Below are positions 265-5,601 of a stretch of DNA of 5,601 bases, piece by piece (the stretch's first letter is position 1; every line of letters starts with the position of its first letter). Under the pieces are notes generated by a model. The model was not told the DNA's origin. It saw only the letters and a program-made list of their open reading frames with translations, and made no database searches. The translations under genes were made by a program, and so were the position numbers. Location of the stretch: positions 1 through 5,601 of IMG/VR virus record IMGVR_UViG_3300015185_000041; one strand, given 5' to 3'. Source of the DNA: a virus. Its lineage: Duplodnaviria; Heunggongvirae; Uroviricota; Caudoviricetes.

Positions 265-555
265 TTAACAGGTTTTGTTTGGATACTGTCTTCGTGAGTG
301 AACTACATTTACGATCTCGATGTTAGATGCTGTTACTCGGTAAAGTATTATGTAGTTAGGATGAGTCACTATCTCACGAAGACTTGGAACTCTTTCGCTC
401 GGTGGGTACAGATAAGGGTGTTCAGTAAGTGACAAAACTGATGTTTCAATGCGTATTTTTAGTCTACGTGCAGCGGGAGGGTTTTCCTTAGCAATATAGG
501 CTACGATCTGACGTAAATCATCACGTGCAGAAGGTAGCCATAAAATGGGCAGCAT
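265..555 (-). CDS. parE: ParE/RelE-superfamily type II toxin (96 aa)
   Basis: Size and motifs (LPILWLPSARDDL..., ...HPNYIILYRV..., ...IEIVNVVHSRRQYP) fit ParE-family toxins. Its ATG shares one base with the TAA stop of the upstream antitoxin ORF (TAATG), the typical antitoxin-then-toxin coupling. Confidence 0.75.
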   Translation of the reverse strand: MLPILWLPSARDDLRQIVAYIAKENPPAARRLKIRIETSVLSLTEHPYLYPPSERVPSLREIVTHPNYIILYRVTASNIEIVNVVHSRRQYPNKTC

Positions 556-746
556 TACTCACTCCTGTTCGTTGCAGCTAATTGAGCAATAAGGTTTTCC
601 ATTTCAGCCATTACTTCGTCATGTGGAATTGCAGGACGGGGATCTGAGAGGCTTGCTGCCACTTTGGTTCGCAACCATTCGTTATAGCTGTTTTCTTGTT
701 CGACTGTTTCAAATTCAGAAATTATCGGGGAAAGGGCTGTACTCAT
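555..746 (-). CDS. paaA: Small type II antitoxin (63 aa), PaaA/ParD-like
   Basis: 63-aa ORF directly upstream of and coupled to the ParE-like toxin. Strong RBS (GGAGG, about 7-nt spacer). It resembles, from memory, the PaaA antitoxins of PaaR-PaaA-ParE systems; the gene symbol is a recollection, not a search result. Confidence 0.6.
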   Translation of the reverse strand: MSTALSPIISEFETVEQENSYNEWLRTKVAASLSDPRPAIPHDEVMAEMENLIAQLAATNRSE

Positions 747-763
747 GTTTTTACCTCCTCAGA

Positions 764-1264
764 TTAGGCGCGACGACCCTTTTGCGCAGCTAGCCATCGC
801 GCAACGATTTCTTCAATTGATTCTTTTTTCTCCTTCATTTCCTTAAGCATTTTCTCTTTATCTTCTTTGGGGAAAGCCCTGAACGTCTGGAGCAAATCCC
901 GCTCCATGGGGTCTATATTAAACGGAAGTTCGTTTTCCGATTGTTCCATATCTGCAGATATAGTGACAACATTGTCCTCCCCAGATTCTTGGGGATACAT
1001 CCTTACAATTTGTAACAACTCGGCCATATCTGGTCTGATTGACTCGGGAGGAACTTGCAGCAACCCTGCGAACTTGATAACAGCCTCAAGATTTAAAGGT
1101 GTCTGACCATTTAGATAATGGCTTACAGCTCCCTGTGTCGAAAATCCCAGAATTTCTGCCGCACGCTCTTGGGTTAACCCTAGTTGATTTTTTTTCGCCG
1201 TCCAGATTTCTTTCAGTCTCTGGGCGGCTTGCAGGTCGATCTCTGACAGGGATTTTCTTTTCAT
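764..1264 (-). CDS. HTH (XRE/Cro-CI family) regulator, prophage repressor-like and PaaR-like; no S24 peptidase domain (166 aa)
   Basis: Helix-turn-helix motif LGLTQERAAEILGFSTQGAVSHYLNG in the N-terminal half. The C-terminal half is acidic and lysine-rich and lacks an Ala-Gly cleavage site or Ser/Lys peptidase motifs. It faces a cro-like gene across an operator-bearing intergenic region and sits 17 bp upstream of the antitoxin on the same strand. Confidence 0.75.
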   Translation of the reverse strand: MKRKSLSEIDLQAAQRLKEIWTAKKNQLGLTQERAAEILGFSTQGAVSHYLNGQTPLNLEAVIKFAGLLQVPPESIRPDMAELLQIVRMYPQESGEDNVVTISADMEQSENELPFNIDPMERDLLQTFRAFPKEDKEKMLKEMKEKKESIEEIVARWLAAQKGRRA

Positions 1265-1371: not shown

Positions 1372-1647
1372 ATGAATCTTGGAGAATATTTGCATCATTC
1401 CGGTATAACTCAGAAGCATTTTGCTGAAATTGTTGGGGTAACCCAAGGGATGGTAAGCCATGTCATTACCGGACGGGCGAAACTTACGGGGAAAAAAATT
1501 TTACGCTGGTGCGAAGCAACAGGCTGGATAGTAACTCCGCACGAGATTGATGGCAGTACTTATCCCAACCCAACCGACGGCTTACCTGTCGAGTATCAGG
1601 CTAACACACAACCAGAGGCGGGGGTGATTCATGAAAATCAAGCATGA
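1372..1647 (+). CDS. Cro-like HTH regulator, YdaS family (91 aa)
   Basis: Helix-turn-helix motif (ITQKHFAEIVGVTQGMVSHVITG), RBS GAGGTG upstream, divergent from the repressor across the operator region; small size and position match cro. Confidence 0.7.
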   Translation: MNLGEYLHHSGITQKHFAEIVGVTQGMVSHVITGRAKLTGKKILRWCEATGWIVTPHEIDGSTYPNPTDGLPVEYQANTQPEAGVIHENQA

Positions 1648-2056
1648 ACACATCCGCATGGCAATGAATGCCTGGGCGCATCCGGACGGCGAAAAAGTAC
1701 CGGCTGCGAAAATTACCAAAGCGTATTTCGAGCTGGGAATGACGTTCCCGGAACTGTATGACGACAGCCATCCGGAAGCCCTGGCCCGTAATACCCAGAA
1801 AATTTTCCGTTGGCTGGATAAAGACACCCCTGATGCTGTTGAAAAAATGCAGGCTCTGTTACCGGCGATCGAAAAGGCGATGCCGCCTTTGCTGGTGGCC
1901 CGTATGCGCAGCCACAGTTCTGAATATTACCGTGAGATCGTCGAACGGAGGGATCGGCTGGTGAAGGATGTCGATGATTTTGTTGCGTCAGCGGTTGTTT
2001 TGTATGACCAGATGAATCGCGGCGGCCCGGCAGGGAATGCTGTGGTGATGCACTAA
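1631..2056 (+). CDS. ydaT: YdaT-family protein (CII-like regulator position, 141 aa)
   Basis: Overlaps the cro-like gene by 17 nt and occupies the cII slot. Size and N-terminus (MKIKHEHI...) match my recollection of Rac-prophage YdaT; the name is from memory only. Confidence 0.55.
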   Translation: MKIKHEHIRMAMNAWAHPDGEKVPAAKITKAYFELGMTFPELYDDSHPEALARNTQKIFRWLDKDTPDAVEKMQALLPAIEKAMPPLLVARMRSHSSEYYREIVERRDRLVKDVDDFVASAVVLYDQMNRGGPAGNAVVMH

Positions 2057-2063
2057 AAGCACG

Positions 2064-3041
2064 GTGTTCGGGGGTTTTATGAGCAGCAAGCTTCATGGTC
2101 TTGTCTGGGAAGGGTGCGCCTTCACCGGCATGATCTTATCCAGGGTGGCGGTTATGGCCCGTCTTGCAGACTACAGCAATGACGAGGGCGTGTCATGGCC
2201 TGCCATTGAAACTATCCGGCGTCAGATCGGTGCAAGAAGTGAATCCACAGTGAAATCGGCTATTGCAGAACTGGCGAAAGAGGGCTGGCTGACGAAGGAA
2301 GAGCGTAAGGTCGGTGGGCGTAATGTAAGCAATATCTATCGGCTTAATGTGGAAAAACTCGAAGCAGCTGCGGCGGCGGCGCGTGAGTCATATAAACCGA
2401 AAAGAAAAATTAGCCCGGCAAAAAATGACCCGTTAACAGTTGACCCGTCAAATATTGACCCCTCAACGGTTGACCCGTCAAATTTTGATGGATCAACTGT
2501 TGATAAAAAACTGCCGATTAGGGGGCCGATGATTGACCCCGATCCGTCAGTATTAAAACCTGATCCGTCAGATAAAAGATCTTCTTGTCCGGACGCTTCG
2601 CAACCGGACCCGCAGACGGCTGAACAGGATTTTTTAACCCGACACCCTGACGCGGTTGTGTTCAGTGCGAAAAAACGCCAGTGGGGAAGTCAGGAAGATT
2701 TGGTGTGCGCACAGTGGATCTGGGGACGAATCGTGAGTCTTTACGAGCAGGCGGCCAGCTATGATGGCGAGATCACTAGACCGAAAGAACCCAACTGGAC
2801 AGCATGGGCCAATGACGTTCGCACAATGCGGATGCTGGATGGCAGAACTCACAGACAAATTTGTGAAATGTTTGGGCGTCTCCAGCGGGATTCGTTCTGG
2901 GTAAAAAACATCATGAGTCCGGCAAAACTCCGGGAAAAATGGGATGAACTGGTTATCCGCCTGGGGCGTTCGCCTGCGCAGCGTTGCGTGAATCACATTT
3001 CTGAACCGGACACTGAAATTCCGCCGGGCTTCAGGGGGTAA
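2064..3041 (+). CDS. Replication initiator / replisome organizer: N-terminal winged-HTH, iteron-encoded linker, C-terminal DnaT-like domain (325 aa)
   Basis: The ORF opens at GTG 2064; ATG 2079 (MSSKLHG...) preceded by GGGGG is an alternative start. The repetitive linker (DPLTVDPSNIDPSTVDPSNFDGSTVD) is encoded by tandem DNA repeats, as ori-lambda lies inside O. The C-terminal tail ...VNHISEPDTEIPPGFRG closely matches the recalled E. coli DnaT tail ...VNTVSEPDSQIPPGFRG. Confidence 0.75.
   Translation: MFGGFMSSKLHGLVWEGCAFTGMILSRVAVMARLADYSNDEGVSWPAIETIRRQIGARSESTVKSAIAELAKEGWLTKEERKVGGRNVSNIYRLNVEKLEAAAAAARESYKPKRKISPAKNDPLTVDPSNIDPSTVDPSNFDGSTVDKKLPIRGPMIDPDPSVLKPDPSDKRSSCPDASQPDPQTAEQDFLTRHPDAVVFSAKKRQWGSQEDLVCAQWIWGRIVSLYEQAASYDGEITRPKEPNWTAWANDVRTMRMLDGRTHRQICEMFGRLQRDSFWVKNIMSPAKLREKWDELVIRLGRSPAQRCVNHISEPDTEIPPGFRG
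2426..2515. repeat. Putative replication-origin iterons: five to six tandem 15-bp repeats (core TTGAC-CC-GTCAA)
   Basis: Head-to-tail 15-mers: TGACCCGTTAACAGT, TGACCCGTCAAATAT, TGACCCCTCAACGGT, TGACCCGTCAAATTT, TGATGGATCAACTGT, then a degenerate TGATAAAAAACTGCC. Related CCGTCAG copies occur at about 2541-2570. An A-rich tract (about 2395-2425) flanks them on the left. Confidence 0.7.
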
Positions 3042-3081: not shown

Positions 3082-3504
3082 GTGGCAAAAGTTTTTACAC
3101 AAGAAGAGCGGGAAAAAATTAAAGGGCAGGTTGTTGAACTCGTACGCCAGAGTGGGCGCGAGACGTTACGACAACTGGAAACTAAAACTGGGGCAACAAG
3201 ATATCTGATGAGCGTTCTGGCCAGAGAGCTGGTTGCCAGTGGCGATGTATACAACTCTGGTTACGGGTTATTCCCGTCTGAACAGGCGCGTAAGGACTGG
3301 CAAAATGCCCGTAAAAAGCTCTCAAGGGCAAAGCTGAAGAAACCATCTGCGGTTGATCCGGACCTTATCTGGTCATTACCTGACGGAGAAATACGTCGCT
3401 ACGACAGGCGCCTAAACATAATCTGTCGCGAGTGCCGGAAGAGTGAAGCTATGCAGCGTGTACTGGCGTTTTATCAGGGGAATTTTGAGGAGGTGGTGCG
3501 GTGA
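3082..3504 (+). CDS. ren: Ren-like protein with HTH-like N-terminal region (140 aa)
   Basis: GTG start with a weak RBS. The C-terminal motif ICRECRKSEAMQRVLAFY resembles the recalled lambda Ren C-terminus (..KECRQSAAMKRVLAVYG..). It sits directly after the replication gene, as ren follows O-P in lambda. Recollection only. Confidence 0.5.
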   Translation: MAKVFTQEEREKIKGQVVELVRQSGRETLRQLETKTGATRYLMSVLARELVASGDVYNSGYGLFPSEQARKDWQNARKKLSRAKLKKPSAVDPDLIWSLPDGEIRRYDRRLNIICRECRKSEAMQRVLAFYQGNFEEVVR

Positions 3505-3755
3505 GTGAATCAAAATGCCAGGTTAATGGCAACAAGATAGAACCATGTGCAGCACTGGCAAAGTCCCTTGAGCGTGATGCTGAATACACGATGCGAAAAG
3601 GTCTGCTGATATACAAAATCTGGAATGAGAGTTTAACTCGCGGTCCTGATTTTGTGATGTTGCGTTCCGGTGAATTTTCTAAATTACCAGTTCGGGTTTC
3701 ATTTTGTCCGTTCTGTGGTGAAAGTCTGAAAACGTGGGAGAACAGAAATGAATGA
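3501..3755 (+). CDS. Hypothetical small protein with putative zinc ribbon (84 aa)
   Basis: GTG start overlapping the upstream stop (GTGA) with a strong RBS (GAGGAGGTGG). Cysteines at C6, C16 and in a CPFCG motif near the C-terminus. Confidence 0.6.
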   Translation: MSESKCQVNGNKIEPCAALAKSLERDAEYTMRKGLLIYKIWNESLTRGPDFVMLRSGEFSKLPVRVSFCPFCGESLKTWENRNE

Positions 3756-4370: not shown

Positions 4371-4539
4371 TTTTGGTTCAACTAAATATAACGCCAGTTT
4401 TGAAGAATGGCATGAACTGTTAATGGATTATGCAGAGTTACGCGGTGGAAGTGCCGCTGATGCTGAAGCATGGCGTGATGATTATGAAGCAGGAAAAACT
4501 CCGGTCGAAGCATATTGTGATGAGTGGGGCGATGAATGA
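4363..4539 (+). CDS. Hypothetical acidic small protein (58 aa, absent from the supplied ORF track)
   Basis: Hand translation from ATG 4363: MADFGSTKYNASFEEWHELLMDYAELRGGSAADAEAWRDDYEAGKTPVEAYCDEWGDE, stop TGA 4537-4539. Its start overlaps the upstream stop (ATGGCTGA) and its stop overlaps the next ATG (ATGA). Confidence 0.6.
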   Translation: MADFGSTKYNASFEEWHELLMDYAELRGGSAADAEAWRDDYEAGKTPVEAYCDEWGDE

Positions 4540-4793
4540 GCGAGGTTAATTATCAGGAAGGGCATGAAACGGCGGGGCAAGCAAAAACAGTGGCATGGCG
4601 ATATCGCTACGTGAAAAAAAAGGCGTTACGGACTTTCAGGGGAAGTAGTGGTCTGGTGACTGGAAATATGTACCGAAAAAAGAGGATTGTAACGACAGGC
4701 CGAACTATGAAATTCAGGCCTTATTCACTGCCCCGCCAGTCCCGGTTACATCAGAAGAACTGGTTAAAGCTGTGCACTTTTATGAACAACTAA
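4536..4793 (+). CDS. Hypothetical basic small protein (85 aa); reading frame uncertain, possibly disrupted
   Basis: ATG coupled to the upstream stop. The product is very basic and uses rare Arg codons, while a more protein-like frame with no start codon runs alongside at 4649-4852 (see findings). Confidence 0.35.
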   Translation: MSEVNYQEGHETAGQAKTVAWRYRYVKKKALRTFRGSSGLVTGNMYRKKRIVTTGRTMKFRPYSLPRQSRLHQKNWLKLCTFMNN

Positions 4794-5257: not shown

Positions 5258-5460
5258 TTGCGGGGAAATCTTAGTTAAGTAGAATGACTGCGGGTGCTTG
5301 AGGCTATCTGTCTCAGGCATGAACACCAAAAGGCAGATAGAGAAAAGCCCCAGTTAACATTACGCGTCCTGCAAGACGCTTAACATTAATCTGAGGCCAT
5401 ATCTATGCGACACATAGAGATTAGCCTCTTACGGACCGAAAGGTCAAGGAGAAGCAGGCT
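5258..5460 (+). promoter_or_regulatory. Hok mRNA leader: candidate promoter and structured 5' UTR
   Basis: Candidate promoter: -35 TTGCGG (5258-5263), 16-bp spacer, -10 TAGAAT (5280-5285). 10-bp stem at 5304-5313 paired with 5331-5340, 17-nt loop. Hairpin 5402-5418 sequesters the AUG of the short upstream ORF. Confidence 0.4.
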
Positions 5461-5464
5461 ATGA
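5405..5464 (+). CDS. Short upstream ORF (19 aa) coupled to hok; possible Mok analogue
   Basis: ATG 5405 with GAGG 8 nt upstream; TGA stop overlaps the hok ATG (ATGA). Product MRHIEISLLRTERSRRSRL. Confidence 0.3.
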   Translation: MRHIEISLLRTERSRRSRL

Positions 5465-5601
5465 AGCAGCAAAAGGCGATGTTAATCGCCCTGATCGTCA
5501 TCTGTTTAACCGTCATTGTGACGGCACTGGTAACGAGGAAAGACCTCTGCGAGGTACGAATCCGAACCGGCCAGACGGAGGTCGCTGTCTTCACAGCTTA
5601 C
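5461..5601 (+). CDS. hok: Hok/Gef-family type I toxin, truncated by the window edge
   Basis: MKQQKAMLIALIVICLTVIVTALVTRKDLCEVRIRTGQTEVAVFTAY is near-identical to recalled HokD/HokC sequences. RBS AAGGAG with 9-nt spacer. About four codons are missing beyond position 5601. Confidence 0.85.
   Translation, partial: MKQQKAMLIALIVICLTVIVTALVTRKDLCEVRIRTGQTEVAVFTAY

What the first reader, a model, noticed from the sequence alone, without database searches (positions are those of the whole stretch)
3082..3504. Ren-like gene retained while the rexAB slot carries a ParE system
The 140-aa protein ends in a motif (CRECRKSEAMQRVLAFY) very like the recalled C-terminus of lambda Ren, whose known role is to let a phage escape Rex exclusion by a resident lambda prophage. 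This prophage carries a different cargo where rexAB would be, yet keeps a counter-defence against Rex-type exclusion. The N-terminal 90 residues look like an extra HTH-like domain absent from the 96-aa lambda protein.
Basis: partly seen in the sequence, partly recalled or inferred. Interest (0 to 1): 0.4.

Follow-up and report, generated by a model that had tools for sequence, protein, structure and literature searches.

The report
Common Ren-family prophage gene (DUF977)
The 140-residue ORF is a real, already catalogued, very common E. coli prophage gene (DUF977/LygF) that is related to lambda Ren over Ren's whole length, sits behind the replication gene as ren does, and has no tested function.

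Summary
The ORF at 3082-3504 (+) is real. An identical DNA copy is annotated 'DUF977 family protein' in E. coli. It matches Pfam DUF977 (E 6e-29) and PHROG 142 'Ren-like exclusion protein' (E 4e-48), the family that also holds lambda Ren.

The Ren-like C-terminal motif is confirmed: 12 of 20 residues identical. The claim of an extra N-terminal domain is wrong. A profile-profile alignment pairs ORF residues 13-133 with Ren residues 3-94 (98.3% probability, E 1.3e-14). Both proteins have an N-terminal winged helix. The ORF is longer through about 10 extra N-terminal residues and insertions in the wing and linker.

The neighbours are as described: a lambda CI-like repressor followed by PaaA2-ParE2, an arrangement already published for prophage CP-933P.

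Carrying a Ren-family gene without rexAB is the norm. Among 5426 complete E. coli genomes, 3966 carry this gene type, 2555 carry lambda-type ren, and 99 carry rexAB.

The gene always follows the last replication gene. It most likely acts as an accessory to the replication module. Anti-Rex activity is only an analogy and was not tested. Verdict: ordinary and already known, low interest.

The parts
3082..3504 (+). Ren-family gene of the DUF977/LygF subtype, 140 aa, GTG start
   Evidence: ORF listing. Pfam DUF977 E 6.3e-29, 101 bits against a cut-off of 22, residues 1-135. PHROG 142 'Ren-like exclusion protein' E 4.1e-48, residues 1-139. RefSeq CDS at the same coordinates in a 99.1%-identical prophage.
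3100..3279 (+). N-terminal winged helix-turn-helix, residues 7-66: three helices plus a beta-hairpin wing. A long helix (residues 67-86) follows.
   Evidence: AlphaFold2 model with pLDDT 93-97 over residues 11-80. Foldseek finds only generic winged-helix regulators, for example the AraR DNA-binding domain (TM 0.65, rmsd 2.5 A over 64 columns), and no hit at E<=1e-3. Aligns to Ren residues 3-50.
3415..3474 (+). Hallmark C-terminal motif of the Ren family, residues 112-131: NIICRECRKSEAMQRVLAFY
   Evidence: BLASTP against lambda Ren 73-92, 60% identity, E 4e-7. The only columns invariant across both subfamilies are N112, E117 and R119; C118, S121, M124 and R126 are nearly invariant. Modelled as helices with pLDDT about 68-75.
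2064..3041 (+). Replication initiator (O-like) directly upstream. The origin iterons lie inside it at about 2405-2510. No helicase-loader gene follows.
   Evidence: PHROG 391 'replication initiation O-like' E 4e-115 and Pfam HTH_36. Residues 158-305 are 35% identical to lambda O 145-277, E 2.6e-25. Repeats with a 15-nt period and a 33-nt inverted repeat.
1372..2056 (+). Cro/YdaS-like gene (1372-1647) and YdaT/CII-like gene (1631-2056): the rightward early operon that leads into the initiator and the Ren-like gene
   Evidence: Pfam HTH_3 and YdaT_toxin; PHROG 163 CII-like E 3e-48. PDB 8bt1 YdaT E 2.7e-92.
764..1264 (-). Immunity repressor, in the position of PaaR2 in CP-933P: lambda CI-like N-terminal domain with a DicA-like C-terminus
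   Evidence: PDB lambda repressor N-domain E 9e-10. NCBIfam DicA match to the C-terminal part, 1.5e-7.
265..746 (-). PaaA2 antitoxin (555-746) and ParE2-type toxin (265-555), in the position lambda uses for rexA-rexB. A terminator-like hairpin lies at 250-233.
   Evidence: Pfam PaaA2 1e-21 and ParE_toxin 6.6e-18. PDB 3zbe 2e-22 and 5cw7 5e-36. Terminator scan.
3501..3755 (+). Downstream 84-aa gene whose GTG start overlaps the stop of the Ren-like gene (GTGA). It has four cysteines. It is not a conserved partner of the Ren-like gene.
   Evidence: ORF list and sequence. PHROG 4030, function unknown, E 7e-39. In Rac-SA53 two other genes separate lygF from the gene at the corresponding place.

Best explanation
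The ORF encodes a Ren-family protein of the longer DUF977/LygF subtype. It is the last gene of the replication block of a Rac-like lambdoid prophage of E. coli. It lies downstream of the Cro-like, CII-like and initiator genes on the same strand, so it is presumably read with them as an early gene (inferred from gene order).

The protein has two parts. The first is an N-terminal winged helix that varies greatly in sequence between phages. The second is a C-terminal helical motif, N-x-[IV]-[CF]-x-E-C-R-x-S-x-x-M-x-R-[VI]-L, which is the only part conserved across the whole family.

Shown here: homology to lambda Ren over Ren's whole length, the fold of the N-terminal domain, and the fixed position behind the last replication gene.

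Inferred, by analogy with lambda Ren and from the literature: the protein acts at or with the phage replication initiation complex, as lambda Ren is thought to. The variable winged helix may match the cognate initiator or origin. The conserved motif may bind something common to all these phages. The protein may thereby keep early phage replication from being blocked or sensed by a resident prophage's exclusion system, of which Rex is the one known example. Whether this particular protein affects Rex exclusion is unknown.
For: Family membership:
- Pfam DUF977 101 bits. PHROG 142 E 4e-48 for the ORF and 1.6e-41 for lambda Ren.
- hhalign probability 98.3%, E 1.3e-14, covering Ren residues 3-94.
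- The HK225 'putative Ren' (113 aa) bridges the two subtypes in the alignment.

Fold:
- AlphaFold2 pLDDT above 90 for the winged helix. Foldseek and PDB sequence hits are all winged-helix domains.

Position:
- The gene lies directly after the last replication gene in every phage-type context examined, whatever the module. After an initiator alone: the window, L011, L013, L018, L019, L021, L023. After initiator plus DnaC-like loader: L014-L017, L027. After initiator, loader and/or DUF1627: L010, Rac-SA53, 75/02 Stx, L024.
- Lambda-type Ren likewise follows P, replication protein 14, a DnaC-like loader or a DnaB-like helicase.

Literature (supplement of bioRxiv 10.1101/2021.04.19.439022):
- ren mutants of heteroimmune lambda grow poorly on Rex+ lysogens, and suppressors map to O and P (Toothman & Herskowitz 1980).
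- RexB binds Ren in yeast two-hybrid assays. RexA and RexB both bind O and Ren in bacterial two-hybrid assays.
Against: - No experiment exists for any DUF977 protein. The only paper in the library that names the family merely notes that it is a winged helix found fused to Fic domains.
- Lambda Ren itself does not reach any Pfam DUF977 score, so the two subtypes are distant, and function may not transfer.
- rexAB is in 99 of 5426 E. coli genomes while this gene type is in 3966. Rex cannot be the main selective reason for the gene.
- The gene is separated from the initiator gene by 40 nt. In lambda, O, P and ren overlap end to end.
- One distant homologue (P0178) sits beside colicin and fimbrial genes with no replication gene called upstream.
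- The position of the C-terminal motif relative to the winged helix is poorly predicted (pTM 0.55).
Confidence: 0.55

Rival explanations
1. One reading: a dedicated counter-defence whose job is to neutralise Rex-type (RexA/RexB) abortive infection, kept by this prophage for use when it infects lambda-like lysogens.
For: Homology to lambda Ren. The ren-minus phenotype on Rex+ lysogens and the two-hybrid contacts of Ren with RexA and RexB. The PHROG annotation 'Ren-like exclusion protein'.
Against: - Lambda rexAB occurs in 1.8% of complete E. coli genomes, all copies at least 99% identical to lambda. Ren-family genes occur in 47% (lambda type) and 73% (this type).
- Suppressors of ren mutations map to O and P, and Ren is linked to the replication module across loader types. 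Both point to a replication role with Rex sensitivity as a consequence.
- The similarity to Ren is low outside 20 residues.
- PADLOC has no related model. That library holds defence systems, not counter-defences, so this says little.
Confidence: 0.2
2. A free-standing winged-helix transcription factor that binds phage DNA and regulates the delayed-early genes downstream, unrelated to replication or exclusion.
For: The winged-helix fold resembles GntR, MarR, AraR and ArsR DNA-binding domains. PHROG 2391 'DNA binding protein' E 1.2e-5. The protein is basic (pI 9.8).
Against: - All structural matches are weak (no Foldseek hit at E<=1e-3).
- The most conserved part is the C-terminal motif, not the predicted recognition helix. 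Only G37 is nearly invariant in the N-terminal domain.
- The genes downstream differ from phage to phage, so there is no conserved target operon.
- No repeat or operator-like site stands out near the gene.
Confidence: 0.12
3. A stand-in for the missing helicase loader: in prophages whose module has only an initiator, the DUF977 protein recruits DnaB to the origin.
For: In the window and in L011, L013, L018, L019, L021 and L023 the DUF977 gene sits exactly where P or a DnaC-like gene would be, and no loader gene is present. The C-terminal half of the initiator resembles the half of lambda O that binds P (that this half of O binds P rests on established knowledge of lambda O).
Against: - No similarity to lambda P or to DnaC-like proteins appeared in the BLAST classification or in the family scans.
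- The same gene coexists with DnaC-like loaders in L014-L017, L027, Rac-SA53 and 75/02 Stx.
- Lambda Ren is dispensable for plaque formation.
- The initiator ends in a DnaT-like tail that could recruit the host loader instead.
Confidence: 0.08
4. Not a real gene: a chance ORF with a chance resemblance.
For: None beyond the GTG start and a weak Shine-Dalgarno sequence.
Against: Strong hits to curated families. 887 homologues at E<=1e-3. Full-length homologues down to 35% identity keep 13 invariant residues. A confident structure model.
Confidence: 0.01

Closest known systems
Lambda Ren (NP_040633, 96 aa)
   Same: - Same PHROG (142).
- Homologous over Ren residues 3-94 (E 1.3e-14).
- Same two-part plan: N-terminal winged helix plus a C-terminal ECRxSxxMxRVL motif.
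- Same place directly behind the replication genes in the rightward early operon.
   Different: - 44 residues longer: about 10 extra at the N-terminus, an 11-residue insertion in the wing region (61-71) and a longer basic linker.
- It carries subtype-specific conserved elements that Ren lacks: the wing residues G62 and F64, W73, Y107 in a mostly conserved PYDR stretch, and a CxxC (C115, C118) where lambda Ren has a single Cys.
- It is not overlapped with the upstream gene.
- Lambda Ren does not score against Pfam DUF977.
- Function against Rex is not tested.
Pfam DUF977 / 'LygF' proteins of Rac-like and Stx prophages (for example Rac-SA53 LygF, Shigella phage 75/02 Stx gp18)
   Same: Direct member: 69-95% identical to annotated LygF and Ren-like proteins, with the same length and the same position.
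   Different: Nothing of substance. Only the neighbouring replication module differs: here an initiator alone, without the DnaC-like and DUF1627 genes. 'LygF' is only a gene label from a Salmonella Enteritidis difference region and carries no functional meaning.
CP-933P immunity region of E. coli O157:H7 (paaR2-paaA2-parE2 / ydaS-ydaT; mBio 2021, PMC8630535)
   Same: Same organisation for the neighbouring genes: repressor, PaaA2 and ParE2 on one strand, then the Cro analogue, the CII analogue YdaT and an o gene on the other.
   Different: That work does not mention DUF977, which is absent from its text. It concerns the neighbours, not the finding itself.
Winged-helix DNA-binding domains (GntR/AraR, MarR, ArsR; Z-alpha of PKZ/ADAR1)
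   Same: Three-helix-plus-wing fold of residues 7-66. Weak sequence and structure matches.
   Different: - No effector or dimerisation domain of those regulator families.
- The Asn and Tyr of the Z-alpha recognition helix that contact Z-DNA are not conserved (the identity of those contact residues is from my own knowledge).
- All matches are below the usual significance levels.

Membership tests
Pfam PF06163 (DUF977) | Score above the curated gathering threshold over the whole model | tested here: met
   101.2 bits against a cut-off of 22.1; residues 1-135 on model positions 1-133 of 134.
PHROG 142 (Ren-like exclusion protein) | Full-length profile match, with lambda Ren matching the same profile | tested here: met
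   ORF E 4.1e-48 (residues 1-139 on profile 1-115 of 116). Lambda Ren E 1.6e-41 (residues 1-95 on profile 11-110).
Lambda Ren family (by homology) | Homology to Ren along its whole length, not only the C-terminal motif | tested here: met
   hhalign probability 98.3%, E 1.3e-14, ORF 13-133 to Ren 3-94.
Lambda Ren family (by homology) | Conserved C-terminal motif N-x4-E-C-R-x-S-x2-M-x-R-[VI]-L | tested here: met
   BLASTP 12/20 identical, E 4e-7. N112, E117 and R119 are invariant in 15 sequences spanning both subtypes.
Lambda Ren family (by position) | Gene directly downstream of the phage replication genes, on the same strand | tested here: met
   The window: initiator 2064-3041, then the ORF at 3082. 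The same holds in all the other phage-type contexts examined.
Lambda Ren family (by position) | Terminal overlap (co-translation) with the preceding replication gene, as in lambda O-P-ren | tested here: not met
   A 40-nt gap separates the initiator stop (3041) from the GTG at 3082. In lambda, P and ren overlap. This is a trait of lambda rather than a strict family criterion.
Lambda Ren (by function) | Allows phage growth on Rex+ (RexA/RexB) lysogens | not testable with these tools
   Needs plating assays. Only literature on lambda Ren is available.
Lambda Ren (by function) | Physical contact with RexA/RexB and a functional link to the initiator | not testable with these tools
   Two-hybrid data exist only for lambda proteins. 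No multimer prediction tool was available.
Z-alpha (Z-DNA-binding winged helix) | Conserved Asn and Tyr in the recognition helix that contact Z-DNA | tested here: not met
   The best PDB sequence hits of the DUF977 profile are PKZ Z-alpha domains (E 7e-4). In the alignment the PKZ Asn and Tyr face r and e in the profile (S44 and R48 in the ORF).
PaaR2-PaaA2-ParE2 three-gene module (the neighbours) | ParE2-type toxin, PaaA2 antitoxin and an upstream repressor in one leftward operon of a lambdoid immunity region | tested here: met
   PDB 5cw7 ParE2 5e-36, 3zbe PaaA2 2e-22, and a CI-like repressor upstream. The arrangement is described in PMC8630535.

The most novel reading that the evidence does not exclude
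The Ren/DUF977 family may not be a Rex-specific counter-defence at all. It may be a near-universal third component of lambdoid replication modules. On this reading its variable winged helix is matched to the cognate initiator or origin, and its invariant C-terminal helix binds a conserved cellular or replisome partner. It would tune replication, or hide the replication initiation complex from several abortive-infection sensors. In prophages with an initiator alone, like this one, it would be the initiator's only phage-encoded partner.
Probability: 0.25. Interest if true: 0.5.

Novelty: already known. Interest (0 to 1): 0.12.

Why it matters
For this window it matters little. The gene is a catalogued family member present in about three quarters of complete E. 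coli genomes, and the ParE cassette beside the repressor is published.

The wider point is a gap rather than a discovery. Ren was defined genetically in 1980 and still has no mechanism. Its relatives are about 25-40 times more widespread than lambda rexAB, which suggests that the textbook label 'Rex exclusion escape' describes a side effect of a replication-linked function. A simple rescue experiment with this ORF would show whether the DUF977 branch shares the lambda Ren phenotype.

Tried and rejected
- NCBIfam: no model matches the ORF.
- PADLOC defence models: no hit for the ORF, for lambda Ren or for the neighbours.
- Foldseek against PDB and BFVD: only generic winged-helix matches, none at E<=1e-3, and no informative viral structure.
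- Z-alpha idea: the DUF977 profile's best PDB sequence hits are PKZ Z-alpha domains (E 7e-4). Rejected because the residues that contact Z-DNA are not conserved.
- Helicase-loader substitute: considered because no loader gene follows the initiator. Rejected as the main reading because there is no similarity to P or DnaC and the gene coexists with DnaC-like loaders elsewhere.
- Zinc site at the CxxC: C115 and C118 are invariant within DUF977 but only two ligands are conserved, and lambda-type Ren has F/I at the first position. Left open, not claimed.
- RNA or regulatory element inside the ORF: Rfam finds nothing there. Promoter- and terminator-like sites are no more frequent than in shuffled sequence. 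Repeats in the ORF are short two-copy matches.
- Literature: 'DUF977' gives one paper (winged helix fused to Fic). In this context 'LygF' is only a gene label. Searches for Ren gave no mechanism beyond.
- The genome-contig scan returned only 12 loci, because the pattern it used was narrow. The taxonomic breadth of the family is therefore not well sampled.

Full report
**What the window is.** The 5.6-kb window is the immunity and replication region of a Rac-like lambdoid prophage of E. coli. It is 99.1% identical over 92% of its length to a prophage inserted next to ompW in strain CH4796.

On the minus strand lie three genes:
- a repressor at 764-1264, whose N-terminal domain matches the lambda CI DNA-binding domain (PDB E 9e-10) and whose C-terminus resembles DicA;
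- a PaaA2 antitoxin at 555-746;
- a ParE2-type toxin at 265-555, followed by a terminator-like hairpin.

On the plus strand lie four genes:
- a Cro/YdaS-like gene at 1372-1647;
- a YdaT/CII-like gene at 1631-2056 (PDB 8bt1, E 2.7e-92);
- an O-like initiator at 2064-3041, with iterons inside it;
- the ORF in question at 3082-3504.

The repressor-PaaA2-ParE2 / YdaS-YdaT arrangement has been described for cryptic prophage CP-933P of E. coli O157:H7 (PMC8630535).

**Checking the observation.** The ORF is real. It has 140 codons with a GTG start, and RefSeq annotates the same coordinates as 'DUF977 family protein'. An identical DNA copy exists in another complete genome. The search found 887 homologues at E<=1e-3.

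The C-terminal resemblance to lambda Ren is real. BLASTP aligns ORF 112-131 (NIICRECRKSEAMQRVLAFY) with Ren 73-92 (NLVFKECRQSAAMKRVLAVY): 12/20 identical, E 4e-7.

The statement that the N-terminal ~90 residues are an extra domain lacking in Ren is not correct.
- Both proteins match PHROG 142 nearly end to end (ORF E 4e-48, Ren E 1.6e-41).
- Lambda Ren's own first 65 residues match a MarR-type winged-helix PHROG (1.5e-10).
- A profile-profile comparison of 12 DUF977 proteins (31-68% identical to the ORF) with 5 Ren-type proteins gives probability 98.3% and E 1.3e-14. It pairs ORF 13-133 with Ren 3-94.
- The extra 44 residues are about ten at the N-terminus, an 11-residue insertion at the wing (61-71) and a longer basic linker.
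- The 113-residue 'putative Ren' of phage HK225 is intermediate between the two subtypes.

**Anatomy.** An AlphaFold2 model built on the 12-sequence alignment has a mean pLDDT of 79. Block means are 93-97 over residues 11-80, which form helix-helix-helix, a beta-hairpin wing and a long fourth helix. The linker (about 87-110) is poorly predicted. The C-terminal motif is modelled as short helices at pLDDT about 68-75.

Foldseek against the PDB and against viral models returns only generic winged-helix domains (GntR/AraR, MarR, ArsR, the Rpa2 winged helix), none at E<=1e-3. Sequence profiles give the same answer. The top PDB hits are PKZ Z-alpha domains (E 7e-4), but the residues that contact Z-DNA are not conserved.

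Conservation is lopsided. Across both subtypes only N112, E117 and R119 are invariant, and C118, S121, M124, R126 and G37 nearly so. The C-terminal motif is therefore the hallmark of the family, and the winged helix has diverged freely. Within the DUF977 subtype further residues are invariant: T28, G62, F64, Y107, C115, C118 and F130.

**Context elsewhere.** Phage records call this gene LygF, which is only a label, or 'Ren-like exclusion protein'. In every phage-type context I examined it lies directly after the last replication gene:
- after an initiator alone in the window, L011, L013, L018, L019, L021 and L023;
- after an initiator plus a DnaC-like loader in L014-L017 and L027;
- after an initiator, a loader and/or a DUF1627 protein in L010, Rac-SA53, 75/02 Stx and L024.

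This holds down to 35% identity. Lambda-type Ren behaves the same way after P, replication protein 14, a DnaC-like loader or a DnaB-like helicase. One distant homologue (P0178) is an exception, lying beside colicin and fimbrial genes.

**Is 'Ren kept although rexAB is replaced' remarkable?** No.
- Ren acts for an infecting phage against a resident prophage's Rex system, so the phage's own rex slot is irrelevant.
- In the phage collection, lambda-type Ren occurs in 174 records, the DUF977 type in 25 and RexA in 19.
- Among 5426 complete E. coli genomes, 3966 carry this gene type at 80% coverage or more, 2555 carry lambda-type ren, and only 99 carry rexAB, all at least 99% identical to lambda.
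- The ParE cassette and the Ren-like gene reassort independently. L027 has the same ParE-PaaA2 cassette with a DnaC-like loader and a DUF977 protein only 42% identical. Ten other DUF977 loci had no ParE or PaaA2 match in the DNA held upstream, up to 6 kb.

**How it most likely works.** No DUF977 protein has been studied. The only paper in the library that names the family notes a winged-helix fold and fusions to Fic domains.

For lambda Ren, the supplement of Thomason et al. (bioRxiv 10.1101/2021.04.19.439022) summarises the state of knowledge:
- ren mutants of heteroimmune lambda grow poorly on Rex+ lysogens, and suppressors map to O and P (Toothman & Herskowitz 1980);
- RexB binds Ren in yeast two-hybrid assays;
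- RexA and RexB bind both O and Ren in bacterial two-hybrid assays.

Taken with the strict linkage to replication genes, and with a prevalence far above that of rexAB, the best-supported reading is an accessory of the replication module. Its loss exposes the replication complex to exclusion. Rex escape would then be one visible consequence rather than the purpose. The steps shown are homology, fold and position. The steps inferred are the partners and any effect on Rex.

**Rivals.**
It fits the numbers and the O/P suppressors less well.
- A plain transcription factor is weakly supported by the fold. It is undercut by the poor conservation of the recognition helix and by the changing downstream genes.
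- A helicase-loader substitute is suggested by the missing loader here. It is contradicted by coexistence with DnaC-like loaders elsewhere and by the lack of any similarity to P or DnaC.
- A chance ORF is excluded.

**Verdict.** The gene is an already catalogued, very common family member. Interest is low.

Noticed in passing
window 2064-3041 (+), iterons about 2405-2510: The initiator looks chimeric. It has an HTH_36 N-terminal domain. Residues 158-305 are 35% identical to lambda O 145-277 (E 2.6e-25), the half of O that is known to bind P. The last 19 residues are identical to the tail of the Shigella phage 75/02 Stx initiator and weakly resemble the C-terminus of DnaT. No helicase-loader gene follows. 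The same initiator-alone layout recurs in E. ruysiae, E. albertii and S. flexneri loci.
   Followed up: partly
window 5292-5601 (+): A hok/sok type I toxin-antitoxin locus. The sok RNA (Rfam RF01794) scores 106.7 bits at 5292-5463. A Hok-like ORF starts at 5461 and runs off the end of the window.
   Followed up: partly
window 4613-4620: A run of 8 A where the near-identical prophage of strain CH4796 has 6. This shifts the frame of a gene annotated there as a 119-aa hypothetical protein. The window ORF 4536-4793 has 85 codons. It is either a pseudogene or a homopolymer sequencing error.
   Followed up: partly
phage record NC_042057.1 (phage DE3), hit H74: In this record Ren matches only over residues 1-77, and the feature under the match is annotated as a ser/thr phosphatase. 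From my own knowledge DE3 carries the nin5 deletion. If that deletion is the cause, nin5-bearing lambda derivatives lack exactly the conserved C-terminal Ren motif.
   Followed up: no
L025/L026 6001-6426 (homologue P0178, 37% identical): A DUF977 protein outside any recognisable phage replication context. It lies between colicin/cloacin-immunity genes and a fimbrial usher-chaperone cluster, with an uncalled 750-nt gap upstream.
   Followed up: no
window 3501-3755 (+): The 84-aa downstream gene starts at a GTG that overlaps the stop of the Ren-like gene (GTGA), which suggests translational coupling. It has four cysteines (C6, C16, C69, C72), possibly a zinc ribbon. It belongs to PHROG 4030, function unknown.
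   Followed up: no
window 3424-3435 (ORF residues 115-118): The CxxC (C115, C118) is invariant in 12 DUF977 proteins. The first Cys is F or I in lambda-type Ren, and HK225 Ren keeps both. With only two conserved ligands, a metal site would need a dimer.
   Followed up: no
L009, L012, L013 (genome-contig hits): Contigs 91-95% identical to this E. coli prophage gene are filed under metagenome-assembled genomes named Collinsella sp. and Veillonella parvula. This is almost certainly a binning error, not host range.
   Followed up: no
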